Origin: Strigamia acuminata
Taxonomy: Eukaryota
Direction: 5' to 3'
DNA: 64,000 bases
Assembly: GCA_949358305.1 (NCBI GenBank)
Contig: OX442314.1
Coordinates: forward strand, 9,176,001 to 9,240,000
The notes below the pieces were generated by a model, which saw nothing but the letters and a program-made list of their open reading frames with translations, did no database searches and had not been told where the DNA came from. The number at the start of each line of letters is the position of its first letter. Within the stretch, counting starts at the first letter, position 1. This document shows, one piece after another, positions 12,001-61,433 of this stretch. A program made the position numbers and the translations under genes.

Positions 12001-14128
12001 TTTTTGAAAAATTGAAAGAAATACTGTAAAAAAAATCCTGTATAACTGTAAAAAACAGTTTAACTTTTCCAGTTCACACTATAATTTATAGATCTCAACA
12101 ACTTGATCCCAGAAAAAACTATTTAATATCTTTGAGCTATATAATTTCTACGCTACTGAGGGTGTGGACAAATCTTGGCAAACATGTTCACAAAACTATA
12201 ATTATCTCCTCTTTTTTATCTCTCTAAACTGCAACTAATTCTCCACATGTAATAAATTAACCAATCAGATTCATTTCCAAGAAAAAAAAACCCAAAAAAA
12301 AAATTAAAATTGGGTCAATGAATTTTTTTTGTTTATATAAAATTTCTAATTTGTCCAAAATCAATAAAATTTTGTTTTGTGCTGGTCACTTGAAAGTGGA
12401 CATTGAAAATGGACATTGAAATGTCAGATGTGATTTTTCCTCCATTTGATGAAATACAATCTGAGATTGGTTCTTTCATTTCCAGTAATCTCTTCTAATG
12501 CATCATTTTTTATGTTTTAAGATGAATGTTTTGTTGTCTGCCTCGTGTCATCTCAACTGACCTCTCAAGGATCAAAGTGGAAGGGTCAACAAAACCATTT
12601 CTTTGGATTACACAAAAAAAAGGTAAAAAAAAAATAATTTCATAAGAAAAATTAATTTGACAATTTTTATCAATTATTTTAAATTATATTTATCCACAAC
12701 CGAATTTTTTAATCCAATTAATTATGCAAATCCCCACAACTTAATCAAAATGCTGATGAGTCAAAACCCGCTTACACAATCTGATTACACAAACAAAAAA
12801 ATTTAAAAAAAAATTAAATAAAAATGGATGTCCATCATTCGGTTAAGTGCTCATACAACTTAAATTAGGATTTCTGTGCATCCAAAATAAAAAGATTTAT
12901 CAAAAAAACAACATTAGGTACATTTGGATTTCTCGACGCAGATTCGGCCGACTCTCTGCCGCAGCAAGTCGACCGTAGACGGCATGAAACTTCGCCGGCC
13001 GCGGCGAAAATTTTCAAGCAAAAAATCGTTGAAAAATTGTTCAATTTTTATACATTTACTATTCTATTTTCATTACCATCGATTTTCCGTCTGCAATTGC
13101 GTACCTTGAAATGATAATGACCATTTAGGTTGAAAACTAATCGAATTTGCAACGTTTTAAAGCCAAACTGTTGTTTCGACTCAAACTCTAACAATTTCTG
13201 TCCAAATTAACCAAATAATTGGTCATTTCTAGGGCTAAATATCTGCATAACGAATACCAACACCCTGAGATACAATTATGACGCAATAGACACTCAAAAA
13301 ACCACCGAAAACAAACGAAACTCGGGGGATCACTCGGCTAATGTCGTCAACGTTTCATTTCTGTTACTTCGCATGTTTCATGCTTTTCCGTAAATAAATA
13401 ACAACATTTATTTGTTGATGTTATACAATTATATTTTTCGCCTCAATCAGTCTTTATGTTACCAGAAATCATCGAATGTCGGTAACCGTTGTTTCAATAT
13501 ATTCCAGGTAGACGCTGACAACGGCTTTTTAGTATTTGAAACATGCTCTGTAACAGAATTAGACAATTATACATAACAGAGGTTTTGCCATCAATTTATT
13601 CATGTTTCCATAGCAAATAATTTTTATTTTCAAATAATTTTCTCTTACTATACTCAGGTTGAGTTGTTTTGCATCTTGAATACAATTCCTTCAACCCTCC
13701 ACTAATATAAGCAACCAGATGAACTGTTGGAGGCACCAATAACAAATCCCTGCACCTAAAAAAAAAATAATAATAATAAAATAAAGAAAAACTCATTAGA
13801 TTTTTATTAAGCACAAAAAATGTCATTTTATCACTCTAGAACTAAATTAATTTATGTCTTTTCATTCAAAGAAGGGAAAGTGTAAGTTATATGTGAGATG
13901 ATTATGGGGGGAGGAAAATTGATCTAAAAAATTAAATAGAGGAAAATTAAAAGGTGTTGGGGGATTTTTGTGATTGAAAGAAAAATTAAATTGAATTTTT
14001 TTGATTTTTCGGTGTAAATATTTTATTTTTTAAAATTTTTTTTTAAAAAATATTCATTTTATTTGCTGTTTGTGCTGCACATACCTTTTGTTCTGTTCAT
14101 CCCTAGGGGGCCGCTCAAACGCATTCAT
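1..14128 (-). CDS. Multi-exon divergent CMGC Ser/Thr protein kinase (DYRK/YAK1/HIPK-like), 3' end outside the window
   Basis: Exons 14128-14085, 13755-13649, 7074-6947, 6349-6209, 3860-3759, 3676-3562, 2003-1882, 1497-1375, 1284-1188, 1129-1040, 189-97 and 26-1 all have GT-AG boundaries with matching phases, giving 396 open codons. Motifs in order: G-loop IIGKGQSSV, VSIK, HADLKPENILL, DFGNA, QTLIYRAPE, DVWSLGCIIAEL, DRLTP..HPFL. The first two exons (MNAFERPP...LVAYISGGLKELYSRC) are less certain but join in frame and resemble the N-terminal helix of YAK1/DYRK1 kinases. Confidence 0.88.
230..680. repeat. ~20-bp minisatellite (ttctaaaaatcaatttttgg) in a kinase intron
   Basis: About 22 tandem, slightly degenerate copies are visible. 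Confidence 0.95.
2415..2803. mobile_element. piggyBac-like non-autonomous element (MITE)
   Basis: TTAA|CCCTTGGAG...CTCCGAGGG|TTAA, with TTAA at 2411-2414 and 2804-2807. Subterminal inverted repeat ataaggc..tacggatttatggacaa / ttgtccataaatccgta..gccttat. Inserted into a 30-bp tandem repeat that resumes after the element. Confidence 0.8.
4651..4895. repeat. Dispersed repeat or degenerate MITE; related inverted copy at ~39502-39633
   Basis: 4785-4895 matches the reverse complement of 39502-39633 (gcataaaatggaatttttggtgcatatttta core). Imperfect catg...ccggata termini; no clear TSD. Confidence 0.55.
5395..5726. mobile_element. Tc1/mariner-type MITE with TA target-site duplication
   Basis: TA|ccgtactgccttgaacaatggcccgggcg ... 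cgcccggccattgttcaaggcagtacgg|TA; near-perfect TIR of about 28 bp. Confidence 0.85.
8475..8875. repeat. ~29-30-bp minisatellite (agcattgttgggaaggaaaaaatcattttga)
   Basis: About 13 tandem copies. Confidence 0.95.
11450..11990. repeat. ~37-bp AT-rich minisatellite
   Basis: Repeating taaatttattataaaagtgtaaatttgtttattttggcat. Confidence 0.9.
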
Positions 14129-15155: not shown

Positions 15156-15552
15156 ATGCAAGAAATAGAAGACGACGAAGTTTTCGAGGCCGAATCGTCC
15201 AGTCATGGGCTCTTCAACCCGTTTCCACGACCATTTGCCCACCTGCACAGCGTCGACTCCGGTTACGAAGCAATGAGGGACTACTCGCCGTACGACTCCG
15301 CCGGCCGCTCCCGGAGTCGAAGCTTTGCCGAGCGGAGCCGAGAGGCGCTCGCCGCTCGCCCGCAACAACCGACATCGGCATCGCCCGTCGAAGTCGAGGG
15401 CCGTGCACTGAGTCGGCGTGCAACCTGGCCCGAGCTGCCGGTCGACCAATCCGATGCGGAGGCCGAGCGACACCGAATTCGAACCGAATCGATGCGCTCT
15501 GTCGGCACTCAAACATCGTCCCTCGAGGGACTGAGCCTGGACGATGATGCGG
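15156..15552 (+). CDS. BH3-only (Bmf/Bim/Bad-like) protein, coding exon 1
   Basis: Acceptor tttag| at 15154, ATG at 15156, phase-1 donor G|GTAAAT at 15552/15553. GC-rich coding composition. Encodes EDDEVF, DSGYE, RSRSRSF, RRATWP and RSVGTQT. Confidence 0.82.
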
Positions 15553-17899: not shown

Positions 17900-18530
17900 G
17901 ATTTTAGACATTATTGGAGCTTTTTATTAAATTTGAAGGAATTTTAGACTTTTTTTGGTATTTTTATGAAAGTTTGGAGGAATTTTAGACTTTTTTTGGT
18001 ATTTTTATGAAAGTTTGGAGGAATTTTAGACTTTTTTTGGTATTTTTATAAAAGTTTGGAGAAATTTTAGACTCTTTTTGGTATTTTTTATGAAAGTTTG
18101 GAGGAATTTTAGACATTTTATGAAAGTTTGGAGGAATTTTAGACATTTTATGAAAGTTTGGAGGAATTTTAGACATTTTATGAAAGTTTGGAGGAATTTT
18201 AGACATCTTATGAAAATTTGGACAGATTTTAGAAATTTTATGAAAGTTTTGAGGAATTTTAGACATTTTAGACATTTTATGAAAATTTGGACATATTTTA
18301 AACATTTTATGAAAGTTTGGAGGAATTTTAGACATTTTATGAAAGTTTGGAGGAACTTTAGACATCTTATGAAAATTTGGACAGATTTTAGAAATTTTAT
18401 GAAAGTTTTGAGGAATTTTAGACATTTTAGACATTTTATGAAAATTTGGACATATTTTAAACATTTTATGAAAGTTTGGAGGAATTTTAGACATTTTATG
18501 AAAGTTTCGACAATTTAAAACAATTTTAGT
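17900..18530. repeat. 30-41-bp minisatellite (ttttatgaaagtttggaggaattttagaca)
   Basis: Tandem copies; the source of the repetitive 186-aa and 146-aa ORFs. Confidence 0.95.
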
Positions 18531-19269
18531 CATTCTTACGAACATATTTTAGACAATTTTCGGCAAATCTTTAAAAAAAATAATAACAATTCTTCAACCC
18601 CTTTGATCACTCCAAACGATAGAAAAAAGCGAATAATAACAATAATAATAAAAAAAAAGAAGTAAAAAGTGTGAGCGGAAAAGTTTGTACCTTCTTCCCC
18701 TCGTCGACTTCCGTACGTTGGCGAAATTCGACGTAAATCGAGTCGTCGCGCGGCAAACATCGCAATGGAGCCAAAAGGGTAACGAAGCGCAGCCCCACGT
18801 GCTAAAAACGACTCCGACAAGAAGTTGAGTGTAAAACTACGGAAGCCGAGAAGCCATAAAAAAGCGCCGTGGTATGATAATTATTACGCGCGTTCATTTT
18901 CCCGCATGCGGACGCCATTAAAGTATGTTTTTCATTTTTTAAAGACGACGGGGAGATGAGATTCAATTGTAGATGAATCTAATGAATACAAAGTGATTTT
19001 GAGTGCGCTGCGCTGCACTGCACTTGGTTGGGCTGCGCTGCATTGCTCGGCGCGTTTTTGATGGTTGTTTAAGTCGCTGTTGGTTCATTGGAGTGAAAAA
19101 GTTGGTGTGAGAAATTTGTTTGTGTTTTGCATAATGTTGTGTGGGTTGTAGTTAGGGTTGTTTCTCGGTGTTGGGTTTTTTTTGGATGTTGTCCAGATTG
19201 GTTTTTTTTTTGGTTTTGTTTTGTTTTGGATGGTTTGGTTGGAGGTTGAGTTGGGGAGTGATTGGATTT

Positions 19270-21450: not shown

Positions 21451-22529
21451 CCTCCAATTTCCCTTCAACTTACACACGACAAGCAGCTTAAAAAGCACTT
21501 TCCAGTGTTTAAAACACTCTTCAATCCAAACGACTTTAATAAACTCCACCTAGCAAGACACACACAACTCGATCACTAATTCCAATCATCATTTTTTCAT
21601 CAAAATCCAACCCGACGGCTGCAAATTTTCATTTCAGAACCAATTTATCTCCCATAAACCCAAGCAGAAAATAGAATACCAACGAAAAAATCGTCCCTCA
21701 CGTTCCACCCAGCTCATTTGTTACTCCCCGCATCCAGCCCGTGTGTCAACTCACTCCCGTTCCATGTACAGCGGATGTCCCACTCGTGTTCGCAGATGAA
21801 GACAAACGACGGAGTGATGGGCGCATAATACACTCTCCCCGCCATGATTAATGACGTCACAGAGGCATTTCTCAAATGAGAATTTGTCGGCCCGATTGGA
21901 TTCGCCCGCCATCGGACGTGGGTTGCCTAGCAACCGGATGCTGAGCACGAGAAGAAGAGGATATGCAGTCGCATCGTCGGGCTTAAATCAAAGGAAGAAG
22001 CGCAAATCCTTTCGCGGGCATGTGCGAGGCGATAAGAGGTTGCTTGAAATTGGCCGCTGCAAAGCCCGGGCTCGATGCTTCGCGCCGTTCGCCGCTTACC
22101 CCTTTAATCCTCTTCCGAGTCGATGACCACTGGGCAGTTGAATCGGAGCCACCTGTGTGCGCGCAGAATTTGATCCTTAAAGTGATAAATGCTTCCCATT
22201 TGTTCATCCTGTTCCACTCTAGTTCATCCTTGGACTTGACACAATTTGCCCGTGTTAATGTGATGAATCGGTGGAGAGGAGAGCGGGATTGAATGATTTG
22301 CAAATTCCATTTACAAGTTTAGAGTCCCTGGTCAAAAGAGGATTTGCTTCGGAACGGTGATTCAACTACGGGTGTAACTTTTGTTTAGTTTGTGCCCGAT
22401 ATCTTGATGGTAAATTCATACGGTGCATTCCATTTTGGGGGGCTGATTTCCTAATTGCACAATAATGCTAGAATAAAGTAAATAAACAGCAAAGAAATAC
22501 AGAAACAAAGTATTGCTCCGTAAGTCAAG

Positions 22530-23240
22530 CTGAAGGTGTATGGAGTAAAGCCGAAGGGGTACGGAGTAAAGCCGAAGGGGTATGGAGTTAAGCCGAAGGG
22601 GTACGGAGTTAAGCCGAAGGGGTACAGAGTAAAGCCAAAGGTATATTGAGAAAAGCCGAAGGGGTACGGAGTAAAGCCAAAGGTATACTGAGTAAAGCCG
22701 AAGGGGTACGGAGTAAAGCCAAAGGTATATTGAGTAAAGCCAAAGGTATATTGAGTATATTAGTAAAGCCAAAGGGAAATTGAGTAAAGCCGAAGGTCTA
22801 CAGAGTAAAGCCGAAGGGGTACGGAGTAAAGCCGAAGGAGTATGGAGTAAAGCCGAAGGAGTATGGAGTAAAGCCGAAGGAGTATGGAGTAAAGCCGAAA
22901 GGGTACAGCATAAAGCCGAAGGAGTAGGGAGGAAAGCCGAAAGGGTACGGAGTTAAGCCGAAGGGGTATGGCATAAAGCCAAAGGGGTACGGAGTAGAGC
23001 CGAAGGATATGGAGTAAAGCCGAGAGGGTACGGAGTTAAGCCGAAGGGGTACGGAGTAAAGCCGAAGGGGTACGGAGTTAAGCCGAAGGGGTACGGAGTA
23101 AAGCCGAAGGGGTACGGAGTAAAGCCGAAGGGGTACGGCGTAAAGCCGAAGGGGTACGGCGTAAAGCCGAAGCGGTACGGCATAAAGCCAAAGGTGTACG
23201 GAGTAAAGCCGAATTGGTACGGAATAAAGCCGAAGTCATA
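22530..23240. repeat. 21-bp GC-rich minisatellite (ggagtaaagccgaaggggtac)
   Basis: More than 30 tandem copies; produces the spurious (TPYPFGF)n ORFs. Confidence 0.96.
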
Positions 23241-24872
23241 TGGTATTCACACATTTGACTGGACGAAAAAGCAAAATTGTAATTGCTGACAAAAATGGCA
23301 GTTTTGAATAAGAGTCGCGGCTCTTAATCGATAATATACGGTATTTTAAATCGGAAGAATGTGATAAACGGTTGGGTTTCCCAGGAGATCACCCTTCCGA
23401 CTACTGATCGGCTTGGTGAGCCCGAGTCATTTTGTTTCTAATAAAACAATGAAAAGAGAGAACGATCAAGCCAGCGTGTAGTATGTTCATATGGGAATGT
23501 TCATCCAGATAAATGATTTCGTCAATCTATCTCAGTGTATCTCTCAACCAATCACGGTGTGTCATGAAAATAATACGTTTACGTCAGACATGACTGTAGC
23601 CAGGTAGGGGGCCTGCCTATGATCTTGGCTTAGGGGCCCGCTATGGAAGACTTGCCTGGTGTTGATGTCTGAACAATAACTGCATGATGTCTGATTTCTA
23701 AGCATTTTCTATGCGCCATCTGGTGTTAAATTAATTAATCATTTGTTATAATGGCGAAAAAAAGGGTCGAATTGAGGTTAAATGATATCAATGAAAGGAT
23801 GAGGGTACAGACGTCAATTTGTTAGGATTGCCCGGGATTCTAACTGCCAATTGGTCTCATTGCCTGGGATTAAATTGTTCAGCATGCAACGCATCATGGC
23901 CGGGGCGAGATAGGTTTCAATTTTGCCACCAGGTGCGTGTAGATAAAACACATTTAAAAAATTGGAAAGGAAAAAAAATACGATGATTGCTCATGTTTTG
24001 TAACATGCAGTTAATGATGGCATCAGGGGTCACGGAATCGTGTCATCGTGCATGGAAAAGACAAAATGGATGTGCAGAACAACACAGACAAATGAAGGCG
24101 TTGAGAAAAAAATTCACTTGTGTCTGTGGGTGTCTAATTTTGAATTATTAATCAAGATTCATCATCCGGGACACACTCACTCGATTAAACCGAGTGGATT
24201 TATCTTGATAATTTTTTTTTTTTTTTTTTTTTGGTAAAAACATGTCCCATTTGCTGTAATTTGCTAATAAGGTGCTCTAAGATTGTATCATTTGTCATTA
24301 TAATGTTGTTTTTTTGTGTGTGGGTGTCGGCCATTTTGGTAATGAAGTTTTGACGTGAGTGCGGAGTTAATATGAAACGTGAAGGGAAAGGATTCTTTAT
24401 TTTTTAAAATGAGTCAGTCATTAGGTTGGTAATGGCGGCGAGCGTAGTGTCGGGCTGCGGTGCGCATGCGCAATGGTTGTTATTAGACGTGAATGAGGAA
24501 GCTGGTGTTTGATGAACGAGAGTTTATCGTTGTTTTTTATTTAGAATTTAATATTAAATTAATTATGGTGAAATTTGATTATTTATTTTGTGTAAAATGT
24601 TAAAAGATGTTGTGGGTAATGATGACGATGCGGCGGTTGGGAAAATGGCCGCCATTGTTGTTCGTTTGCCGGTGCGGGAAATCTTTTCGCTTTTTCGACG
24701 GTTTGGACGATTGGATGTGGAAAATTGTGTAGACCTGAGGTTATATAAATGTAGAATCTCGAATTTTATTACATAAAAATGGAATTTAAAGTTCGAAAAT
24801 AAATTTCGCGAGCCGAAATTGAACAATTGTCAAATTTTTTCTTTTAATTTATTTAATTTTTATTGTTTCTAG

Positions 24873-25096
24873 ACGACGACGACGACGACGATAATGTGTT
24901 CAGCCCGTCTTCTACCGTGGGTTCCACGGGGCCTTTACCGGACGTGATCCAGCCTATGAACGAGCGAAGGCATTCGCTGGACGGCTCGGCCCTTCAAAAC
25001 CTCGGCCGCAATTTAAGGGACCTGGCGGACAGCTTCCGAGCTAGAAGCGAGGAGCAAAGGGCTTCTATTGGTCGCAGACGTACGTGGAGTCTACAG
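24873..25096 (+). CDS. BH3-only protein, coding exon 2 (contains the BH3 motif LGRNLRDLADSF)
   Basis: The acceptor ttgtttctag| matches the phase-1 donor of exon 1 (G+AC=Asp). Donor CAG|GTTAGA is phase 0. The BH3 motif is at 25001-25036; RRHSL and RRRTWSL kinase sites are also present. Confidence 0.85.
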
Positions 25097-26477
25097 GTTA
25101 GACCTCGGTTTTTTTCAATGCTGGTTCATACTTTTGTCTAATGAAGAAAATTTAAAAAAAAAAATTTATATATTTTTTTTCCCTCCTCCATTTTGTTTTT
25201 TCCCCATTTTGTTACAATGAAAAAAAAAATCAACGAATTGAATAAATATTTACATATTTATTTACAATTTTTCTTGAAACATTAATTAGTGCAAAGTCAA
25301 AGTCAAGCCAAGTGTAACCAGCGTGACTCACCTGTTGAAAGGAAAAGAGAACTTCCTCCACTCCACTCCAACTTGATATACAATGACTAATGGAGGCAAA
25401 GATCAGTTTAAATGACCCTCAATATCCCCCCATATAACTCCATTGTTCAATGGAGTGTGCAAATTCACACCTGGTGCAACAGCAAATTGTCAACACTTGT
25501 CTCTCCCCATCACAAATTACTAATTTGAATCCAACTGGGTGTTTACCTGCACCCACTAATCTCTTGCAGAGTGTCACATGGTGTGGGTGGGGGTGGGGGT
25601 GGGGGGGATTGGATATTCATTACTTTAGCATTAAAAGTCGTCCCTTTTGCAATCACTTTTTTAAGCTTTCGGTCAATAATTGTGGGGTTAATGGAGCTTT
25701 ATTTAATTCTGGGGAAATCAGCTGGGAAAGTATGGGTAATTTGATAGATGGAGTGACTTCCGGTTGGGTTTAAAGTTGGATGGTCAGTGGAGATGGGCTG
25801 GGATGGAGTAATAAAGTTGTTTAGTTTCATTTTAATAGAAATTGAATGTTGGAGAGGTTTTTAAGCTTTTGGGATGGTTTTTTGATGGGATTTCTTTCTC
25901 GGCTTTGCATTTGCATCGGATTTTTCGGGTTTCTTGCGATTCGTTATAACGAGGTTCGACTGTATTGGAAATGCAAAAAAATTGGGGTGGAAAAGTGCGG
26001 TGTATTTGCATCACAAGGAATTGTGCAGGTTTAAGGACTTGGAAAGTTACATTGTATGTCAGAGAGCGGCCCTTTGTCCATAGATGGGTCGCCGTTACAA
26101 ATAAATACATACATGTATGTCAGAGAGGCTGTTTTGCAGGTGCAGGCAAAAGATGGCGCCATTTGGTTAGGGAAACAAGATGGTGGCCTGATTGCCCATC
26201 CATCTCACCCACTTGCTCGTGCAAATACCGGTTTGATTTAATAACAGTATATATACAGGATTTATCTTAAAATTTCCTTTCCATATCTCCACCTGTCTTT
26301 TATTTATTTATTTGTTTATTTTTTTTTTCTTTTTCCGTTGAAAAATTTAATGGATTCATATCTAAAGTAGAAAGCTGAAATTATAGGTTGACTTTTTTAG
26401 GGGGTAATTTTTGTTATCAAGTCCTTGACTCTTTACTTGATGATACATAAAATTTAAAAAGTTTTTTTTTTTTTCTT

Positions 26478-33239: not shown

Positions 33240-34330
33240 TATTATTTTTTGTGTTTTAAGAGTGTTTTGGGTTGTTTTAAGAGTGTTTTTGGATGTTTAG
33301 AGGATTTTTGTGGTTGTTTTAAGAGTTTTGTTAGTTGTTTTAAGAGTTTTGTTGGCTGTTTTAAGAGTTTTTTGGTTGTTTTAAGTGTTTTAAGAGTGTT
33401 TCTGGTTGTTTTAAGGATTTTAAAGGTCATGGGAAGAGAAAAATAAAAATTGAGGAGAAGATTGTTTGTGTCATTATTAGACCAAATCCATTGTTGAAAC
33501 GTGTTCAATTGTTTCGAGAGTGTTATATCGTTTGTTTAAACGTTTGAAAATTCTCAAATGTCCTCCATTTTTAGTTTTCGAAAGTTTCCAAAAGTTGCCG
33601 TTGGTGGCGCTATTTATGACGTCATCGGCGACAAACAAGCAGCTTTTTAGCATGGGCTTGGCTTCATTTAAGAGCTACGAAATTTTTTTTCTAAATTTGA
33701 CAACACTGTTAGGTTATTGGGATTTTAATATTCAGTAAATATTCCAATTTGCTATTTGTTGCAAGTGTATAGGTTCAAAAGAACTAATACTAAATTTTCG
33801 TAGCTCTTAAATGAAGCCAAGCCCATGCTAAAAAGCTGCTTGTTTGTCGCCGATGACGTCATAAATAGCGCCACCAACGGCAACTTTTGGAAACTTTCGA
33901 AAACTAAAAATGGAGGACATTTGAGAATTTTCAAACGTTTAAACGAACGATATAACACTCTCGAAACAATTGAACACGTTTCAACAATGGATTTGGTCTA
34001 ATAATGACACAAACAATCTTCTCCTCAATTTTTATTTTTCTCTTCCCATGACCTTTAAGGTTACTTTTTGGTCGTTTTAAGGGTTTTAAGGTTACTTTTT
34101 GGTTGTTTTAAGGATTTTAGGATTAGTTTGTGGTTGTTTTAAGAGTGTTGTTGATTGTTTTAAGAGTGTTTGAAGAGTATTTTTGGTTGTTTTAAGAGTG
34201 TTTTTGGTTGTTTTAAGAGTGTTTTTGGTTGTTTTGAGTGTTTTAAGAGTGTTTCTGGTTGTTTTAAGGGTTTTAGGATTAGTTTGTGGTTGTTTTATGT
34301 GTTTTAAGAGTGTTGTTTTAACTGTCATAG
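33240..34330. repeat. ~21-bp minisatellite (ggttgttttaagagtgttttt) interrupted by a foldback element
   Basis: The same array lies on both sides of 33424-34054. Confidence 0.85.
33424..34054. mobile_element. Foldback MITE with ~260-bp TIRs and TTAA TSD (Kolobok-like)
   Basis: Arms 33420-33682 and 33796-34058 (including TTAA) are reverse complements with one mismatch that I could see; 113-bp spacer; TTAA|AGG...CCT|TTAA termini. Confidence 0.85.
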
Positions 34331-47808: not shown

Positions 47809-48959
47809 AACAAAATTCCCTTCGAATTTGCTTATTAATTATTATATATATAATTTAACTACGAAAAATGGTATTTCACTATAACGAGGGTTTGGGATTA
47901 AATCATGAATTTTAACTAAACTCAAAATAAAAAAATTCTTTCCAGTGATCTCAAATATCATGTGATATGCCCTCAAAAAAATTCAATCCGAGAGCGGCCA
48001 TTTTGTTTTTATATAAATATTTTTTTTTTTTTAGTAAAAAAAAAAAATTTTTTTTAATTAGAATTATGTAAATAGCAATAAGTGGAACAATAAAAGGGAT
48101 TTTTTTCTTCTAACTAGAAATAGGTATATTATAATTATATAATTAATTGAAATTAACCCTAAAAATTGTGACAAAAGGGTTAAAAACTTCTCTCTATACC
48201 CTACCATGTCTTTCATGAAATATTTTAAGGGTTCATAAGAATAAATAAATAAATAAAAAATATAAAAAAAAAAATATTTTTATGGGCCCCAGTAAACAAG
48301 TCACAAATCTATTTTTATTGGACTTGGAATTAAAAAGAGAAAGAAAAAAAGGAATTCCATAATTCAGCGTTCGTAAAATCTCCATAGGTGTTTGTGATGA
48401 GGCAGTGAATCACTTTGGTTGGGTGATTCAGATCACTGTGATACCCTCTCATGCCTGAATTTAGCAACAAACTCGTCGCAAATCAGTTTTCGCCTTTTTG
48501 GCTTTGGTTTTTGAGAGTTTGGGTGAGCGCCATTAGAGGGCGTTAAGTATATTTTTATGGCCGCTTCCATTTGGTAAAGTTGTCTCGTAAATTTTCCTCT
48601 TTTTTGTCACTTTGTTTCTTTGTGTATAAGAAACCGTCCCATATTGGTTTTTTTTTTTCTTTTTTTTTTTTTCATTGCTGATTTTGGAATCAGTTTTGGT
48701 GTATTGTCAATTCGATTTTTCTGATTTTTGATTTTGATTTTTGATTTTGTTTTTTGATTTTGTTTTTTTTGGATTTGTTTAGCCACTGTTCGGGTTCCTG
48801 TTTTGTGCTGTGGCGGAAAGCTTGTTTCCTAGTGTAAATTGATTTTTGAGTGTTTTTTTTTGTTGTTTTACAGTTGGAAATAGTATTAATTTGATTTTTT
48901 TTACACATGTAAATGCATTTACAATGATTTTAATTGGAAATTTGGATATTTTTTTAGAG

Positions 48960-49390
48960 GCAAATGCATTTTTACAGGTATTAATGCATTTTTACAGGTA
49001 TTAATGCATTTTTACAGGTATTAATGCATTTTTATAGGTATTAATGCATTTTTACAGGTGTTAATGCATTTTTACAGGTATTAATGCACTTTTACAGTTA
49101 TTAATGCATTTTTATAAGTATTGAAGCATTGTTATAGATATTAATGCATTGTTTTAGATTTTAATGCCTTTTTACAAATGACAATGCCTTTTTACAAATG
49201 ACAATGCATTTTTACACATTTTGATGCATTCTCACAGATTTTGACGCATTTTTATAGATGAAAATAAAATTTTACACATGAAAATGCATTTTTACAGAAG
49301 ACAATGCATTTTTACAGATGACAATGCATTTTTAGAGATGACAATGCATTTTTACAGATATTAATGCATTATTCCAACATGAATGCATTT
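48960..49390. repeat. 20-bp minisatellite (atgcatttttacaggtatta)
   Basis: Tandem copies. Confidence 0.92.
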
Positions 49391-51222
49391 TTATTCATTA
49401 TTAACTTCCAAGTGTGAATATATTTCCTATTGATTTTAATTCGATATTTGGGCATTGTGACATATGTAAATGAATGTAAAATTTTACAACGATTTATACA
49501 TTACTAATTTCGTGGCATTCGTACACATTGAAATGCATTTACAAATTAGCATAGATTTAATTAAAAATTTTGTGCATTTTTTTTCCTTACTTAACTTTTC
49601 AATTGTGCTCATTTCAAATACATTAAATTGTTGTTTGTTTTGCATTCTCTTTTATTTCTATTACACATTTCTTTGATTCATTTTTAAGTGTCAAATTCAC
49701 AAAATGTTAGAAGAAGAAAAAAGTTTGTACTTTAATACGAAAAGAAGAAGAAAAAAAAATGTTTTTGAAGACTTTTTTCTTGAAATAAAGTGCTTTGTGT
49801 TTTCTTTTTTCCAACTTCGGTGTTTGTCGTCATTTCATCAAAATTTTTGTTGCTTTAAATTCATGGCCGCGCAGTAAATTACGGTGGTCGGGAGGAGACA
49901 TTTTTCTTGTGCTGCTCCTTACACGACAGTGCAGTCAAGCGGAATTTCGGGCAGAGTTTTTCATTAATTTGAACCGTTCGACTCAATCTTGCGGCTTCTG
50001 ATAATTTACTGGTTCGCTATTAGAATTTATGGCCAAAGTGTAACGGAAACATGCAAAGCCGAGCGGAAGATGAAAAAGACAAACGCTCTGTGTTTAGTTT
50101 TCATCATTTTTTTTTTTGGTGGAAAAATAATAATAAACGGAAGGAAATGTCAACAATGTGAAATTAAATTTTGATAATAAAAAAAAAATTTGCTTAAAAT
50201 ATTTGTCTCTTATGTAAAAAATAATTACTTTAAACGATTAATGCAGGATTCATAAGCAGTTTCCTACGTAGGAAACCAGTCTGCACACAGAAATTTTGCC
50301 TACAGAAAAAACCGGTACTCACAAATTTCATTCCAGTCTTGGAATGTCTGCGAGATATGTTCTGTGGCGTAAAAAAAATTAACTTTCTGGCATGTCGATG
50401 CAACGGAAAGCTGATCTTCGTTTCCAGGCACAGATCTGTGACACCGAAAGTGGAGATCGGTCTTGACAATTTGTGACCGGTCGTAATTTTTTTTAACCGG
50501 TTTCAAATATGGCAGCTGGCAGCAATCAGTTCTGTCAACAAATACAAACAACTGTATATTCTATTTATAAAAATAGATTATTAGTTTATAAATAAAATTA
50601 CAAATTAAAAACAAACTAGCAATCTTACTCCAAAAGTAGCTTTAAAAATTTTTATTGGCATCCATCTTGTTTCTTTTTCATGGCCATTCACTATTTCTTT
50701 TCTGTTGCATAGAACTGTGAGTACCACAAAAAGTCTGGCTTGACAGACTAGCACATGTTCTGCTACCAGATGATTCTGATAGGATTTTCTGTCATGTCTA
50801 TACATACAGAAAAGTCTGTGGGCATTAGCGGTTAGCGGATGATCTTATGAGTACTAATCTTTACGGCAAAAAGAGATATAAATATTAAATACGGGGTTGG
50901 TTCTATCGATTGTACTTCAACACTTAATTAGAATATCATTGTCTGAATTAGATGAAACAAAAAGGTGATACAAATTCGTAGTTTAACATTTTAATTTGAT
51001 TTTAGAATTTGTAACACCACGACATCAATGCAAGTTATGGTACTTGTTAAAATGTACTCTGTACAATCTTTGTAAACGTTACTTTACAAAGCTGAAAGTT
51101 CAAATTTACATTAACGTTTCAGCAATTAAAAGACGTTTAAAGCCAGTCACATCCGGCCAAGTTCGCATTACCGTACACAAGCCGGTCAACTTGCTTCTCT
51201 TAACCTGTATGATCCGTCGAAA

Positions 51223-51436
51223 ATGAAATATCTAATTATTTTGGTCTTAGTTATTCTGTCGTTTATGGGTAAGTTATATTTTTTACAAAAATAATTCATT
51301 CATTACTGAGCATGTTTCATTCTGATTAGCAATCACGGTTCGTTCGCAATACTGTTGGGTTGATGGTGGTTGTTCAATATCCTGCCGTAGTGGTAGTGGT
51401 CGATGTGTCAATGGTGGCTGCATTTGCGCTGGATAA
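51223..51436 (+). CDS. Two-exon secreted CS-alpha/beta defensin or scorpion short-toxin-like peptide precursor (50 aa)
   Basis: join(51223..51268,51330..51436) with a 61-nt phase-1 intron G|GTAAGT...TTAG|. Protein MKYLIILVLVILSFMAITVRSQYCWVDGGCSISCRSGSGRCVNGGCICAG*. Hydrophobic signal peptide, C-x5-C-x3-C-x6-C-x4-C-x-C framework with GxC, and AATAAA at 51474 and 51502. Confidence 0.88.
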
Positions 51437-52594
51437 ACTTGAGGAAAAGGCCAAAATTGTCCAAACCCGTAAAAATAAAAATGTAAACAATTTGAAATAT
51501 CAATAAAAATTAAAGAATAAAATTATACCGAATTTTGTCGCTTAAATTGATCCATTTAATTAAAATTAATTAAACAACTGCAACTGCCTTGTTGGGCCAG
51601 ATTGTCCGAGAAGTGTTGGCGGTGTGTTGTAGGTGCTCAGAAACCTAGGAAACACTTATTTGTTAATAATAGCAGTAGGAAGGTTGTTGCTATGGGTTTC
51701 TAAGTTGCTATACTAGTTATTGTTGATATGTTTTATTGTCGTTGTGTTTGGTTGCTTGGCAATTGTAGTTTGTAGCTTTACAAGAGTTTACTGGGTTTGA
51801 AACAAAACACTTTTTTTGGGTTTATGAGTTGTCTGTGAGACTGTTTCTTCCAACTTTGTGGGATTTTTGTAAATAGCGACAAATGGATGACCTGATTGCA
51901 GTGTTCAAAAGATTCTCACTTATGGTTTTGTTGCTATCTATTGGTGGTATTAAAACGTTGCTTTGAGTGGTTTAGTGAAGCTCTAGATAGCACGTATAGT
52001 ATTCTGTGGATTCCTCTTGAAGCCGTAGTCGTGATGAATGTCAAAATGTCAATCGCATTACGTTGGAAAAGCAAATTAAAGGGATACTGCAATGAAATTC
52101 TAAAATCTCTGAAAAATCTGTTTAAAATGTAGAAAATGGTGAAACAATAGGTTTAATACACAGGAATACTTAGGTTTGAAGTGGATTTAATCGGTTTTCA
52201 TTTTATAAAAAATTATTTTGAAATTTGAAATTTGGCCACGTGATATTTGTAATTATTGAGTCAAAAATATTTTTTTAAATTTTTAAATTTTTAATTTATA
52301 TGTATATGTTCTGAGCTTATTTCACTGGGAAAAAAATGTAAATTGCCAAATATTTCCAAGTTGGAAATTTATATTGAATAATTTGAATTTACTATTTTGA
52401 GAAAATTTGATGTAAATATGTTGGAAATATTTGGATATTACCAATGTTTCATAAATGTGTTGTAAATAGCTGAAATGAAAACTGTCATTTTACATTGATT
52501 GTAAAACAAATGTAAAGCAAGAAAATACATGAAATTTAAATGTAACATTTAAATATCTGAATCGTAACAAGAACATCGTAAAATACGGTCAGGA

Positions 52595-56822: not shown

Positions 56823-56983
56823 TGTGAGTGTACGTGTGTGTGCAGAAAATGTAGGAAGAAGAAAGCTTTTTCAACAAGAAACTGATGAGATGTATATTCA
56901 ATACAAGTAACACAATAATACAGAACATGCGCGCAGTGCGCGTTACCAAGCAACTTAAACTATGATAACATATATATCTCACA
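56823..56983 (-). repeat. 3' LTR of the copia element
   Basis: Identical to 61273-61433 and adjacent to the PPT. Confidence 0.97.
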
Positions 56984-57087
56984 AATCCCCCTCATAGGTT
57001 ATCATTTGTTTAAACTTAAAAAGAAAACTAACTCTAACAACAAACATGAATGAAAGAGAAAAACGAATAAAATATTAACAACAAAAA

Positions 57088-60000
57088 TTATTGTTCTTCT
57101 TCTTTCATCTTGGCATCATCTTGAAGACCCACACGATCACGGCCTTCTTCAAACTTGTCCTTTGCCAGCGGTTTAGTCAAGAAATCCGCAACCATTTCTG
57201 CTGAAGGAAGGTGGACCAGCTTGATATTTCCCAATTTTAGATCGTCCTTAATAAACATCATATGTCGATTCATATGCTTGGTCCGCCCAAACTGGTTTGA
57301 ACCACAAAGAACTTGAATGCCGGGTGTGCAGTCAGTGTAGATTGGTACGCATCTTGGCACGCAATCCCCCTCACCGACCTCGCTTAGGAAATCTCTTGCC
57401 CATTTGATTATTTTGAGCAGTTCACAAATCGCAAGTATCTCGCTCTCGGTGGTGGACATCGCCACCAAACGTTGTCTTTTCGTTTTCCATCCGATAGTTG
57501 CGTCGCCGATCTTTAAAATCAAGCCCGTGTGTGACTTAGCATCTTGGGTTACACACCAACTTGCGTCCGCGAATCCTTGTAAGCTTCCTTCTTTGCTTGA
57601 GAAGAACAAACGCAAATCTTTTGTACCGTTGACATAACGCAAAACGCGTTTCGCTGCTCGAAAGTGCAGTTGGCGAGGATCTTTGGAGAAAGCTGAGAGA
57701 GCGCTCACAGCATATGACAAATCCGGACGAGAAACAATCATCAGGTGCATCAAAGAACCGATGATCTGCTGGTATAAATTCTGATCAACCTTCTTTGATT
57801 TGTCGAAGTCCTCCAAATCCTGTCCTGTTGCCATCGGCGTTTTCGCAGTGATCCCATTGAGTAAGTCAAATTTTGTCAAAATGTCGTTTACATATTTTTG
57901 TTGTCCCACGTATACTCCGTCCTTAGTGACCGAAATTTCCATTCCGAGAAGGAAGTGAACTTCCCCCATGTCGACTATTTCGAAAACCTTCTTTAGTCGT
58001 TTTAGTATCCGATCAAGAATTCTTTGTCTCGTGAAAGCAGCCAAAATATCGTCCACGTACACGCCCAAAATTATGTAGTCATTTTTATGTCTATAAATAT
58101 AGACACACCGGTCGTTTATGAGCGGTTTCAAGCCAATCTTGATCAGTTCCTGGTCAAGTCGCTCGTTCCAGCATCGCCCCGACTGGCGCAACCCGTACAG
58201 GCTGCGTTCCAGTCGGCAAACGAGATCGTCTTGCTCGTAACCTTCCGGTTGTTCCATAAAGATGACTTCGTCCAACAATCCGTAAAGGTACGCGGTCTTA
58301 ATGTCGAACTGTCGCGTCAACAGTCCGTGTCTGGCTATCATCGAAAGTATGATCCGGAGCGACTCCATCCTCACTACGGGCGAAAAAGTCTCCGTGAAAT
58401 CCACACCAGGTCGTTGGGAATACCCCACCGCCACCAGGCGTGCCTTATACTTATTGACGCTTCTGTCGGCATTAAGTTTAATGCGGAAAATCCATTTGCT
58501 TTTCACCGTCACTGTCTGTCTTTCCCTCTTTACAAGTGTCCATACTTTATTGATGTGTAGAGAATTAATCTCGCTGTCCATCGCTTCTTGCCATTTCTTT
58601 CTGTCATTGCAGTTTACCGCCTCTACGTAAGTTTCAGGAGTGAACAGCTCTTCCACACACTCTATTGCAGCATTGACCGCCTCTTGTTGCGCTGCTATGC
58701 GCTCCGAGCGTCGCACTCCCTCTTGTTGCAATCGCTCTTCGCGCTGCGCAAGCTGTTCCGCCAGTCTCTGCTCAAGCGCCGCTTTCGTCGCGCCCCTGGG
58801 TCGCCCCACCTGCACCGGCTGAAGTGGCTGCGGTGCGGCGTCGTCAACAGCGATAACCGGGTGTTCGACCTCGTCTTGAGCGTCCTGCAACTCGTTCACC
58901 GGTTCAACAGGAAAAATGGCGTCTTCCTCTTCTTGGCAAAAACGTTGCTTTGCCCCCTCATCGTTTAAACCAAAAACGTCTGCACCTCGCACCTCCTCAT
59001 TGAATCCTACCGTCCTGCCCTCTTCTACTTTACCGTCTTTCGGAACGTAAATTCGATAGGCTTTCCTGTCGACTGAATAACCGACAAATATGCCGTGTTT
59101 GGCTTTCGGATCCAATTTCCGTCGCTTTTCCTCCGGTATGTGCAAAAAGGCTTCGCAACCAAAAATCCGCAAGAATGCAACTGTCGTCTTGTGTTTCGAC
59201 CATAACTCCTCGGGTGTAAAATCCCCATTCGGCTTGGTAAACGATCTATTTTTGACATAGACCGATGTGGCGATCGCTTCGGCCCAAAACTTCAAAGGAA
59301 GGCCCGATTTGATTAGCAGTGTCCGAGCCGCCTCTACCAGCGTACGATTCGCTCTCTCAGAAATTCCATTACTAGAAGGATTAAAGGGAACCGTAAGCTC
59401 GTGCAGAATGCCCTCAGATTCGAAAAAACGCTTGAAATTTGCATTGACAAATTCCCCACCGTTGTCACTTCTAAACCTTTTGAGTTTGTAGCCAGTTTGC
59501 TTCTCTGCCATGTTCTTGAATATTTCAAAATGTTCAAAGCATTGAGATTTCTCCCGCAAGAAAAACGCGAATTTTTTGCGTGTAAAATCATCAGTTAGAA
59601 TCAAAGCATACTTGCTGCCTCCCAGCGATGCAGTCTGAAACGGTCCAACCATATCCCCATGAATAAGTTGCAAAACTTCAGATGACTGCTTCCCCTTGAC
59701 TCTTTTGTACGGGCTTCTCGTCATTTTTCCCAACGTGCATGCAGTGCATTTTTCCAAATGCACGTCCGCATATTCCAGCCCGTGCACAATCTGTTTGTCT
59801 CGCATTTTATCTATTGCACGCTCATTTAAATGACACAGTCGCTCATGCCACAATTCCTTGCTGGCTGGGCGAGGTTGCACAGAAACTGCGTTGGCTTCCT
59901 CTCCAACCCATTGGTGCAGTAAATACATGCTGCCATTTAATGTTCCTGTTGCAATCGTCATTCCTCTTGGGTCCTTAATTTCCGCGACTTTATTGTTGAA

Positions 60001-61152
60001 TGAAATCGCATAATTATTAGCGGTAAGACGTGGAATTGACAACAGATTGCCTTTCAACTCTGGCACAAATAAGACGTCGAGGAGCAAAATCTTCATGAAT
60101 TCCGTTTCTGAAAGCTTGCATCTCAAAATGATATTCCCTTTCCCCGTAGCCAACAATTTTGCGCCCTTTTTGGCTGTGGTGACCACTGCTTCGATTTCCT
60201 TGAAAGTCCCAAACAATTCCCGTTTTCCAGACATATGCGCCGACGCGCCGGAATCGAGAATCCACTCGTCTTGACAATCGTCGCCGCCCAAATCGACGAC
60301 AAAAGCATGCTGGATAACCGCTTCCTGTTGTGCTATTTTTGCCGTGGCTGCCTCTCTTGGTCGTTGTGACGCTGGACTCGGCCTCTTTTCGGGGTAGCGC
60401 TGCCAACAATTCTTGGCAATGTGGCCACTTTTACCACATTCATAACAGGCTGATTTTGAAACGTTTTTCAACTTCTTGCCGCCCGAATTACGTCCCACCT
60501 GCGCCTTGAACGCAACCGTCACGTTGTCCACGGTCTGTCCCTTTGAGTGGAATGTCGCCCACTGATCTTCCATTTTCAGTGACCGTCGCAAATCTTCAAA
60601 TTTCGCGTCTGCCGCGTCACGATAATTTCGTGCAATATTGCCATATTTTGGCAAAAGTCCTCGTGTCGTGTAATGAAGAATCTCGCGGTCCGAAACAACC
60701 TTTCCTACCGCTTTGGCTTTTGCCTGAATCGACTTGGCCCTGTTCAAGTAACCATCCGTCGACTCGTCGTGTCTCATGCGCAGCTCCGCAAGTTCCGAAC
60801 CAGCGTCAATTTGTCGCTCTTCCGTGGTACCTGCGTACTGCGCTTTCAACGCCTCCCAAAGCGCCTTGGCCTCGGTAAAAGCCATACAGTTTGTGGCTTC
60901 TTCGTCCGACATCGTTAAAACTATAATCCCTAAAGCCTCGTCATTATTTTTGGCCCACGCTTCGTGCTTCTTCAGCGCGTCTGCATACGTTGCATCCGTC
61001 GCGTCGGGCACTATCGGCTCCGGTTTCGTGATGACGCCTTTCAAACCTTTTGCAGCTAGAAGTGTCCCCACTTTGAATTGCCAAGTAAAATAGTTTTGAG
61101 GTTTTAGAAGTTCAATTCGATTCAAAGATGTACTTGCAATCGCATCCGCCAT
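57088..61152 (-). CDS. Copia Gag-Pol polyprotein (1354 aa)
   Basis: CCHC knuckle CYECGKSGHIAKNC, protease WILDSGA, integrase WHERLCH..CTAC..RSDNGGEF, RT YVDD and RNase H FADASW. The PR-IN-RT-RH order is diagnostic of Ty1/copia. Confidence 0.97.
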   Translation of the reverse strand: MADAIASTSLNRIELLKPQNYFTWQFKVGTLLAAKGLKGVITKPEPIVPDATDATYADALKKHEAWAKNNDEALGIIVLTMSDEEATNCMAFTEAKALWEALKAQYAGTTEERQIDAGSELAELRMRHDESTDGYLNRAKSIQAKAKAVGKVVSDREILHYTTRGLLPKYGNIARNYRDAADAKFEDLRRSLKMEDQWATFHSKGQTVDNVTVAFKAQVGRNSGGKKLKNVSKSACYECGKSGHIAKNCWQRYPEKRPSPASQRPREAATAKIAQQEAVIQHAFVVDLGGDDCQDEWILDSGASAHMSGKRELFGTFKEIEAVVTTAKKGAKLLATGKGNIILRCKLSETEFMKILLLDVLFVPELKGNLLSIPRLTANNYAISFNNKVAEIKDPRGMTIATGTLNGSMYLLHQWVGEEANAVSVQPRPASKELWHERLCHLNERAIDKMRDKQIVHGLEYADVHLEKCTACTLGKMTRSPYKRVKGKQSSEVLQLIHGDMVGPFQTASLGGSKYALILTDDFTRKKFAFFLREKSQCFEHFEIFKNMAEKQTGYKLKRFRSDNGGEFVNANFKRFFESEGILHELTVPFNPSSNGISERANRTLVEAARTLLIKSGLPLKFWAEAIATSVYVKNRSFTKPNGDFTPEELWSKHKTTVAFLRIFGCEAFLHIPEEKRRKLDPKAKHGIFVGYSVDRKAYRIYVPKDGKVEEGRTVGFNEEVRGADVFGLNDEGAKQRFCQEEEDAIFPVEPVNELQDAQDEVEHPVIAVDDAAPQPLQPVQVGRPRGATKAALEQRLAEQLAQREERLQQEGVRRSERIAAQQEAVNAAIECVEELFTPETYVEAVNCNDRKKWQEAMDSEINSLHINKVWTLVKRERQTVTVKSKWIFRIKLNADRSVNKYKARLVAVGYSQRPGVDFTETFSPVVRMESLRIILSMIARHGLLTRQFDIKTAYLYGLLDEVIFMEQPEGYEQDDLVCRLERSLYGLRQSGRCWNERLDQELIKIGLKPLINDRCVYIYRHKNDYIILGVYVDDILAAFTRQRILDRILKRLKKVFEIVDMGEVHFLLGMEISVTKDGVYVGQQKYVNDILTKFDLLNGITAKTPMATGQDLEDFDKSKKVDQNLYQQIIGSLMHLMIVSRPDLSYAVSALSAFSKDPRQLHFRAAKRVLRYVNGTKDLRLFFSSKEGSLQGFADASWCVTQDAKSHTGLILKIGDATIGWKTKRQRLVAMSTTESEILAICELLKIIKWARDFLSEVGEGDCVPRCVPIYTDCTPGIQVLCGSNQFGRTKHMNRHMMFIKDDLKLGNIKLVHLPSAEMVADFLTKPLAKDKFEEGRDRVGLQDDAKMKEEEQ

Positions 61153-61272
61153 CTTCCTTGTTCGATCGTTACGCCTTGTTTTTCAATTCTTCTTTCACCG
61201 CAAATTCTCCACAAATCGTCGCCAAAATGGAACGTTTCTATCTTGCAAAGAAACCAGACTCCTGCTACCACT

Positions 61273-61433
61273 TGTGAGTGTACGTGTGTGTGCAGAAAAT
61301 GTAGGAAGAAGAAAGCTTTTTCAACAAGAAACTGATGAGATGTATATTCAATACAAGTAACACAATAATACAGAACATGCGCGCAGTGCGCGTTACCAAG
61401 CAACTTAAACTATGATAACATATATATCTCACA
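61273..61433 (-). repeat. 5' LTR of the copia element
   Basis: Identical to 56823-56983 and followed on the minus strand by AG and then the PBS. Confidence 0.97.

What the first reader, a model, noticed from the sequence alone, without database searches (positions are those of the whole stretch)
51223..51436. Hidden two-exon gene for a minimal CS-alpha/beta peptide with a scorpion K+-channel-toxin-like signature
Seen: below the ORF-track size cutoff, a signal-peptide exon and a six-Cys exon are joined by a 61-nt phase-1 intron, with poly(A) signals downstream. The predicted mature peptide after VRS| is QYCWVDGGCSISCRSGSGRCVNGGCICA(G). Established: C..CxxxC..GxC..CxC defines the CS-alpha/beta fold, and a phase-1 intron near the end of the signal peptide is typical of arachnid defensin and scorpion toxin genes. 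Alpha-KTx toxins carry a short C-x5-C loop and G-K-C-x-N-x-x-C-x-C. Here the short loop and G-R-C-V-N-G-G-C-I-C are present, with Arg at the pore-blocking Lys position. Inference: a very compact (28-29 aa), weakly charged defensin/toxin intermediate, possibly N-pyroglutamylated (Gln1) and C-amidated (terminal Gly).
Basis: partly seen in the sequence, partly recalled or inferred. Interest (0 to 1): 0.85.

Follow-up and report, generated by a model that had tools for sequence, protein, structure and literature searches.

The report
Centipede minimal defensin-like peptide family
A tiny two-exon gene in a soil centipede codes for a predicted secreted six-cysteine peptide and shares its signal exon with many otherwise divergent copies in the same genome; it is likely a family of defence peptides rather than scorpion-type nerve toxins, in a lineage where no antimicrobial peptide genes had been found.

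Summary
The gene model holds: ATG 51223, 46-nt exon, 61-nt phase-1 GT-AG intron, 107-nt exon, stop 51434-36 (50 aa; predicted mature peptide 28-29 aa, Cys spacing 5-3-6-4-1). The host is not an arachnid: a kinase gene in the window matches Strigamia maritima closely but not fully, so this is a geophilomorph centipede. New here: two DNA runs hold many other contigs sharing the signal exon, intron start and a 3'-UTR block, while the mature-peptide part is covered only by this gene's own contig. That is a family with a conserved signal and a hypervariable mature exon. The toxin reading is weak: Pfam Toxin_2 11.5-13.2 bits against a cut-off of 25.1, PDB E 0.5-4, Arg where the signature has Lys, net charge about +1, and no defensin-like family in the published S. 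maritima venom proteome. AlphaFold (single sequence) gives the C-terminal hairpin but no helix; the one solved peptide with identical spacing is also helix-less. Best reading: a minimal CS-alpha/beta-type host-defence peptide family (0.45); venom peptide 0.25. Expression, disulfides and activity are untested.

The parts
51223..51268 (+). Coding exon 1: first 15 codons plus one base of the predicted signal peptide
   Evidence: shared at 80-95% identity with at least 8 other contigs in run X1
51269..51329 (+). 61-nt phase-1 GT-AG intron
   Evidence: donor region shared by 12-15 other contigs, and loose ends of paralogues run on to similar TTAG acceptors; no RNA proof
51330..51346 (+). Start of exon 2: end of the predicted signal peptide (Val at -3, Ser at -1 of the predicted cleavage site)
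   Evidence: sequence; similarity to the closest paralogous contig stops at 51345 (record 10); cleavage site inferred, no SignalP run
51347..51433 (+). Predicted mature peptide, 29 aa, six Cys spaced 5-3-6-4-1, N-terminal Gln, C-terminal Gly
   Evidence: covered only by the gene's own contig in both runs at 80% likeness
51434..51436 (+). Stop codon TAA
51466..51521 (+). 3'-UTR block shared with paralogues, with AATAAA at 51474, 51502, 51516
50400..51145 (.). Adjacent upstream high-copy repeats ending 77 nt before the ATG (context, not part of the gene)
   Evidence: summed contig depth in the thousands to tens of thousands against about 90 over exon 2; loose ends at 51145

Best explanation
This two-exon gene of a geophilomorph centipede encodes a predicted secreted 28-29-residue six-cysteine peptide, shares its signal exon with many divergent copies in the genome, and is likely one member of a fast-diversifying family of defensin-type host-defence peptides. 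Shown: the gene anatomy, the host lineage and the sharing of signal exon, intron start and 3'-UTR block with other contigs whose exon 2 differs. Inferred: the signal peptide routes the precursor for secretion and is cut after residue 21; Gln1 would cyclise and the terminal Gly would be turned into an amide; three disulfides would pair as in CS-alpha/beta peptides (C1-C4, C2-C5, C3-C6), pinning a short, probably non-helical C-x3-C segment onto a C-terminal Gly-x-Cys beta-hairpin. Duplication under a fixed secretion cassette lets the mature exon diversify against changing targets. With a net charge near +1 it would more likely bind a specific microbial or fungal surface target than lyse membranes by charge. 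The Arg-Cys-x-Asn likeness to scorpion toxins is best read as convergence on the small sequence space of a minimal hairpin.
For: Gene model and chance test. Family: of 28 contigs laid in X1 and 31 in X2, one each is 99%+ alike and the rest 80-95%; 8 X1 contigs differ at 51240, 12 at 51264, 14 at 51283; 51346-51465 is covered by the self contig alone. The 25 substitution rows inside exon-1 codons fall 12 on third, 9 on first and 4 on second positions (hand count; P=0.046 for 4 or fewer); none gives a stop; 6 of 7 listed non-self records per run have gap totals of 0, 3 or 6. Host. Frame: C-x3-C, G-x-C, C-x-C all present; identical spacing, without gaps, in PDB 2LIX, which has the classical disulfides but no regular helix or sheet (PMC3325286, passages), as our models lack a helix. 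Role: the centipede six-Cys defensin-like family SLPTX02 (PMC4379518 Table 1) is seen mostly in trunk and whole-body transcriptomes and in the venom of 2 of the sampled species (PMC6878950 supplement); the S. maritima venom proteome lists 12 families, SLPTX02 not among them. The S. maritima genome paper found immune signalling genes but no antimicrobial peptide genes and blamed their shortness and divergence (PMC4244043, passages).
Against: No expression or activity data. No defensin family hit: Pfam returns only Toxin_2, and the Atlas top rows are scorpion short-toxin clusters at 0.85-0.86 (lead only). Net charge +0.7 at pH 7 is low for an antimicrobial defensin. No kappa-B-like site in the 1 kb upstream (0 found, 1.27 per kb expected for the loose motif; motifs recalled). 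A conserved signal with a hypervariable mature exon is just as typical of venom peptides (own knowledge), and the host is venomous. Tarr (PMC5116183, section 4 part 1) states that six-Cys spacing cannot tell toxin from antimicrobial peptide. SLPTX02 has 0 contigs in S. maritima, so kinship to it is not shown. The exon 2 sequences of the paralogues were not retrieved, so it is not shown that they are six-Cys peptides, except that one X2 contig aligns from 51402 to 51559 (record 15). Fold searches of the models found nothing.
Confidence: 0.45

Rival explanations
1. A venom peptide family of the forcipular gland that acts on ion channels of arthropod prey, having converged on the scorpion alpha-KTx design (about half of this probability is for K+ channels specifically).
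For: Venomous host. 9 of 12 PDB rows at E up to 10 are K+-channel toxins or an engineered mimic, best 2LIX and 1JLZ; Pfam's only row is Toxin_2. The Asn of K-C-x-N is present, and PMC5004176 (passages) allows Arg as the basic dyad residue and reports block with half signatures. A PAM-like amidating enzyme is in S. maritima venom. GEOTX01, the top single contig of that venom (19.6% of peptides), could not be compared. SLPTX02 was recruited to venom twice in other centipedes.
Against: All matches non-significant (E 0.12-4.3). Lys absent, charge about +1, no aromatic residue at the two usual dyad partner positions (positions recalled). None of the S. maritima venom peptide families whose framework I saw has this frame: CHILOTX01 has adjacent CC, GEOTX02 8-10 Cys, SLPTX16/17 mostly 8 Cys, SLPTX21/22 linear. 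GEOTX01 is one contig and was described as unlike any known fold. That proteome is from a sister species.
Confidence: 0.25
2. The cysteines pair differently: the peptide is a remodelled, circularly shifted EGF-like or other hairpin knot (for example C2-C4, C3-C5, C1-C6), acting as a signalling ligand, protease inhibitor or reproductive peptide.
For: No helix in two AlphaFold runs; the C-x3-C segment is rich in Gly, Ser and Ile. The order C-x3-C-x6-C-x4-C-x-C with Gly-Arg-Cys-x-Asn-Gly resembles tenascin-type EGF repeats (recalled, not from a call). Foldseek's only rows are an EGF-domain protein, at E 8-9 and probability 0.04. An earlier AI note on a sea-squirt six-Cys family reached an EGF reading.
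Against: No EGF family in Pfam at E up to 10 (filters drop weak rows). The Foldseek rows are noise-level. A solved peptide with the same spacing has CS-alpha/beta disulfides without a helix.
Confidence: 0.13
3. A component of the defensive sternal or epidermal gland secretion of geophilomorphs, or of egg-brooding secretions, aimed at predators or moulds rather than circulating in haemolymph.
For: Geophilomorphs have defensive sternal glands built like venom glands (PMC11170834, passages); a lineage-specific gland would fit a family with no detectable relatives elsewhere and absent from the venom list.
Against: No data tie the gene to any tissue; brood-care secretion is recalled, not from a call.
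Confidence: 0.1
4. This copy is a silent or decaying duplicate carried next to repeats; the family is real but this member makes no peptide.
For: High-copy repeats end 77 nt upstream of the ATG; no TATA box in the 320 nt upstream; the copy is alone in the window.
Against: Open frame, six intact Cys, consensus splice sites, poly(A) signals, and identity with contigs of two runs.
Confidence: 0.07

Closest known systems
Centipede SLPTX02 (scoloptoxin family 2; defensin-like, six Cys, C-C-C-C-CxC; PMC4379518 Table 1, PMC6878950 Fig. S41)
   Same: Same class of animal and same cysteine order; secreted; mostly non-venom tissues.
   Different: No member reported from S. maritima (0 contigs); many members are multi-domain; sequences could not be compared because the held supplement is cut before that alignment.
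ImKTx104, alpha-KTx28.1 (PDB 2LIX; PMC3325286)
   Same: Identical spacing 5-3-6-4-1 and length class (27 aa); gap-free alignment; no regular helix; lacks the classical pore Lys.
   Different: Scorpion venom peptide, acidic (pI 4.66), weak KCNQ1 blocker (Kd 11.69 uM); match not significant (E 0.54-0.7) and mostly the cysteines.
Short alpha-KTx toxins (Pfam PF00451 Toxin_2; PDB 1JLZ, 2MLA, 1BKT)
   Same: C-x3-C / G-x-C-x-N-G-x-C-x-C C-terminal half.
   Different: They carry Lys before the fourth Cys and several basic residues; this peptide has Arg there, no Lys, charge about +1; 11.5-13.2 bits against a cut-off of 25.1; different subphylum.
Centipede SLPTX15 two-disulfide CS-alpha/beta toxins (SsTx, Sm2a; PMC7232367 passages)
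   Same: Centipede peptides of the CS-alpha/beta type, some of them Kv blockers.
   Different: Four Cys, about 53 aa, scolopendromorph venom; not this frame.
Strigamia venom peptides CHILOTX01, GEOTX01, GEOTX02 (PMC6878950)
   Same: Small secreted Cys-rich peptides of the same genus; GEOTX02 is also an expanded intron-bearing family.
   Different: CHILOTX01 has adjacent CC; GEOTX02 has 8-10 Cys and a different signal peptide; GEOTX01 sequence not seen.

Membership tests
CS-alpha/beta superfamily | Cysteine-stabilised helix motif C-x3-C ... C-x-C plus third Cys pair, with G-x-C (definition in PMC5116183) | tested here: met
   Cys at 3, 9, 13, 20, 25, 27; Gly two residues before Cys20
CS-alpha/beta superfamily | Alpha-helix over C-x3-C packed on a beta-hairpin | tested here: inconclusive
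   Two single-sequence AlphaFold models (pLDDT 74 and 86, pTM 0.36-0.37) give the hairpin but no helix; no alignment was available; 2LIX with the same spacing is helix-less
CS-alpha/beta superfamily | Disulfides C1-C4, C2-C5, C3-C6 | not testable with these tools
   Model coordinates are not returned; needs NMR or chemical mapping
Invertebrate defensin (Pfam Defensin_2 and kin) | Profile match above cut-off | tested here: not met
   No defensin family listed at E up to 10 for four versions of the query
Invertebrate defensin (Pfam Defensin_2 and kin) | Antimicrobial activity, immune tissue expression | not testable with these tools
   No assay; no RNA run available
alpha-KTx | Signature K-C4-x-N (PMC5004176) | tested here: not met
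   Asn present, Lys absent (Arg at mature position 19)
alpha-KTx | Pfam Toxin_2 score above gathering cut-off | tested here: not met
   11.5-13.2 bits against 25.1
alpha-KTx | Functional dyad: basic residue with an aromatic or hydrophobic partner about 6.6 A away | tested here: inconclusive
   Arg could serve; Tyr2 and Trp4 lie at the N-terminus, not at the usual partner positions (recalled); distances not measurable
alpha-KTx | Scorpion venom origin | tested here: not met
   Host is a Strigamia-like centipede
alpha-KTx | K+-channel block | not testable with these tools
   Needs electrophysiology
SLPTX02 | Six Cys, C-C-C-C-CxC | tested here: met
SLPTX02 | Sequence homology or clade membership | not testable with these tools
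   Alignment lies beyond the cut of the held supplement
CHILOTX01 / GEOTX02 | Cysteine framework (adjacent CC; 8-10 Cys) | tested here: not met
GEOTX01 | Sequence similarity | not testable with these tools
   No sequence in the part of the supplement held
EGF-like repeat | Profile match to an EGF family | tested here: not met
   None at E up to 10; Foldseek rows at E 8-9 only

The most novel reading that the evidence does not exclude
Geophilomorph centipedes have an unannotated, expanded library of ultra-short three-disulfide peptides on one conserved signal exon, and it has independently reached the scorpion alpha-KTx design (short n-loop, basic-Cys-x-Asn hairpin) as a venom or gland K+-channel ligand: a natural second origin of defensin-to-toxin conversion outside scorpions.
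Probability: 0.12. Interest if true: 0.8.

Novelty: new variant of a known kind. Interest (0 to 1): 0.5.

Why it matters
Two published surveys found no antimicrobial peptide or defensin-domain genes in the Strigamia genome (PMC4244043; PMC4833078), and the venom study listed no defensin-like family for it (PMC6878950). A hidden family of 50-residue precursors with a conserved signal exon gives a simple bait to pull out the whole repertoire and test whether it is the missing immune effector set, a gland secretion or venom. The peptide is also among the smallest natural three-disulfide scaffolds of this frame, so it tests whether the helix of CS-alpha/beta is dispensable and whether toxin-like hairpins arise repeatedly.

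Tried and rejected
No whole genome is held for this window, so paralogous exon 2 sequences could not be extracted. Sequencing-run search: no RNA holder listed; two runs of one study hold the stretch and may be its source; this says nothing on expression. phmmer of exon 2 against 1.84 billion representatives: 0 hits at E up to 0.001 (a 34-aa query has little power). Atlas: best rows 0.86 and, with toxin, cyclotide and nodulin families left out, 0.87 for an unnamed 30-aa cluster; all under 0.9. NCBIfam: none. Foldseek against PDB: none for model 1, three noise rows for model 2; VIA-align of model 2 against 48,161 chains: none at Z 2 or more, uninformative at 30 residues; a pdb_via second look never ran. 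The large protein search needs 40 residues and the related-loci search a longer query than exon 2 offers, so neither could be run for this peptide. A pattern scan of metagenome contigs for the exon-1/donor anatomy: 0. No second copy of either exon in the window. Four short motifs of the peptide in the held part of the PMC6878950 supplement: one unrelated millipede lysozyme-type row only. Search with the BH3-like exon 15156-15545 to place the host: none. Pfam scan of 26 and then 117 other frames (of 900 frames of 35 aa or more): only the copia polyprotein passed cut-offs. Rejected: arachnid host; exon 1 as mere repeat DNA (its variants keep frame, ATG, donor and hydrophobicity); tandem arrangement of paralogues from the 51512-to-51220 joint (same contig depth as the 51262-to-51467 joint, order unclear). 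Earlier-findings look-ups by place and sequence were empty. Not-in-print statement rests on searches of an open-access library only.

Full report
1. Observation. Exon 1 runs 51223-51268 (15 codons plus one base; Met-Lys then a hydrophobic run, GRAVY 2.51). A 61-nt phase-1 intron follows (51269-51329; donor G|GTAAGT, acceptor TTAG). Exon 2 runs 51330-51436 with TAA at 51434-36. The frame adds up to 153 nt, 50 residues. The predicted mature peptide (51347-51433) has 29 residues, cysteines at 3, 9, 13, 20, 25 and 27, two Arg, one Asp, no Lys, seven Gly, and a net charge of +0.7 at pH 7. AATAAA lies at 51474, 51502 and 51516, in AT-rich DNA. A loose CS-alpha/beta cysteine pattern occurs once in the window, 0 times in 60 order-2 and 6 times in 300 order-3 Markov windows. 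The cleavage site is inferred from the -3/-1 rule (own knowledge); SignalP was not available.

2. Host. No genome is held. A 47-residue kinase exon at 6209-6349 (-) is 100% identical to UniRef T1IP64 of Strigamia maritima (2 hits among 3 candidates). Across seven cleanly aligned exons the identities are 47/47, 31/31, 31/32, 42/45, 24/27, 30/35 and 37/46 (two further rows span introns and are left out). The window therefore comes from a close relative of S. maritima, probably the same genus: a venomous soil centipede, not an arachnid. The species was not determined.

3. It is a family. Two runs of one study hold the stretch and may be its source. Laid on 51190-51530 at 80% likeness, 28 contigs of X1 and 31 of X2 fit; one per run is 99%+ alike and the others 80-95%. 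The others pile on exon 1 and the start of the intron (8 X1 contigs differ at 51240, 12 at 51264, 14 at 51283; summed depth about 1040 over exon 1 against 90 over exon 2) and again on a 3'-UTR block at 51466-51513. From 51346 to 51465 only the gene's own contig is laid, in both runs. The closest paralogous contig (X2 record 10) stops aligning at 51345, at the predicted signal/mature boundary. Depth is no copy number and alleles may count twice, so I put the family at roughly 6 to 20 loci. The exon-1 variants behave like coding DNA: of 25 substitution rows within its codons, 12 are at third, 9 at first and 4 at second positions (hand count; P=0.046 for 4 or fewer); the ATG is unchanged; no stop arises; replacements stay among hydrophobic or small uncharged residues (read site by site, unphased; one row is uncharged only if paired with its neighbour of equal depth); 6 of 7 listed non-self records per run have gap totals of 0, 3 or 6, and the exceptions span the intron (49 records and 12 gap rows were not shown). 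Two loose-end consensuses run on to TTAG acceptors. One X2 contig aligns from 51402 to 51559 with 13 other letters and 21 gap letters while its first 63 letters do not align (record 15), so at least one relative seems to share the C-terminal half. The exon 2 sequences of the others were not retrievable. No second copy lies in this window.

4. Fold. [quoted passage not shown] PDB 2LIX aligns without gaps and with the same spacing (E 0.54-0.7). Its paper reports classical disulfides but no regular helix or sheet (PMC3325286, passages). My two single-sequence AlphaFold models also lack the helix: three strands at pLDDT 74 for 34 residues, a C-terminal hairpin at pLDDT 86 for 30 residues; pTM is 0.36-0.37. 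Fold searches gave nothing usable. So the hairpin is predicted, the helix is not, and the disulfide pairing is untested. I put CS-alpha/beta pairing at about 0.7. An EGF-like pairing is the main structural rival: the likeness is recalled, Pfam lists no EGF family, and Foldseek's EGF rows are at noise level.

5. Toxin or defence peptide. For toxin: the host is venomous; 9 of 12 PDB rows are K+-channel toxins or an engineered mimic; Pfam's only row is Toxin_2; the Atlas ranks scorpion short-toxin clusters first at 0.85-0.86, which its own calibration calls a lead only; Arg can serve in a dyad and half signatures can give block (PMC5004176, passages); S. maritima venom contains a PAM-like enzyme. 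Against: 11.5-13.2 bits against a cut-off of 25.1; the Lys of K-C-x-N is absent; charge is low; and the S. maritima venom proteome has 12 families, whose peptide members are GEOTX01, GEOTX02, CHILOTX01 and SLPTX16, 17, 21, 22 (PMC6878950: passages, section 5 part 1, supplement parts 1, 20, 49 and searches). Those whose framework I saw differ from this one. GEOTX01 could not be seen, and the supplement is cut before the SLPTX alignments; both may bear on the verdict. Centipedes do have a six-Cys defensin-like family, SLPTX02 (PMC4379518, passages and section 7). Its tree is dominated by trunk and whole-body contigs, includes one geophilomorph (Himantarium) and no Strigamia row, and it entered venom only in Lithobius and Ethmostigmus. 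The S. maritima genome paper failed to find any antimicrobial peptide and suspected shortness and divergence (PMC4244043, passages); a second survey found the Defensin2 domain only in a tick and a scorpion (PMC4833078, passages). A 50-residue two-exon family with a hypervariable mature exon is the kind of gene such surveys miss. Against the immune reading: no defensin profile hit, low charge, no kappa-B-like site within 1 kb. Tarr's point stands that spacing alone cannot decide. The phase-1 intron is no discriminator either, being enriched near signal cleavage sites of secreted proteins generally (PMC5308243, passages). Geophilomorph sternal glands are a third possible source (PMC11170834, passages). 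PMC7232367, PMC9325314 and PMC7864903 were read as passages; Dash et al. 2019 was seen only as a reference-list entry.

6. Mechanism. Most likely (0.45): a secreted, three-disulfide, probably helix-poor CS-alpha/beta-type host-defence peptide, made from a fixed signal-exon cassette whose mature exon diversifies after duplication, likely pyroglutamylated and amidated, and binding a specific microbial target rather than lysing by charge. Gene anatomy, host and family are shown; processing, pairing, tissue and target are inferred. Rivals: venom peptide 0.25 (K+ channel about 0.12), other pairing or role 0.13, sternal or brood secretion 0.10, silent copy 0.07.

7. Novelty. No relative was found among 1.84 billion representatives (low power for 34 residues), and the paper searches (listings only unless cited above; open-access library) showed no report of such a family in Strigamia. 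It is a new variant of a known kind: known frame, unusually small, an unreported expansion in a lineage with no annotated antimicrobial peptides. It is not a member of alpha-KTx, and membership of SLPTX02 is open.

Noticed in passing
window 56823-61433 (-): Intact copia-type LTR retrotransposon: 1364-aa gag-pol frame 57088-61182 (Pfam gag, integrase, RVT_2) between two 100% identical LTRs of about 161 nt, so a very recent insertion.
   Followed up: partly
window 15156-15545 (+) and about 24873-25098 (+): Two exons of a likely BAD-like BH3-only gene: several Arg-rich phospho-site-like motifs and a BH3-like stretch (resemblance recalled). No Pfam hit, no homologue found for the first exon. BH3-only genes are little known in arthropods (own knowledge).
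   Followed up: partly
window 95-13757 (-): Multi-exon protein kinase gene, orthologue of S. maritima T1IP64: exons at 47/47, 31/31, 31/32, 42/45, 24/27, 30/35 and 37/46 identities. Used to place the host.
   Followed up: yes
window 15000-56500: Steady positive GC skew on the + strand (0.11-0.19, against 0.02 in 1-14000); the peptide gene may lie inside a long + strand transcription unit.
   Followed up: no
window 33420-34058: Inverted repeat with 267-nt arms, 99% complementary, 105 nt apart; possibly a young MITE.
   Followed up: no
window, many places (e.g. 149-652, 17996-18592, 22431-23339, 48869-49453): Dense minisatellite arrays with units of 20-41 nt in introns and intergenic DNA.
   Followed up: no
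paralogous contig laid at window 51270: One paralogue has a GC instead of GT donor at the same intron.
   Followed up: no
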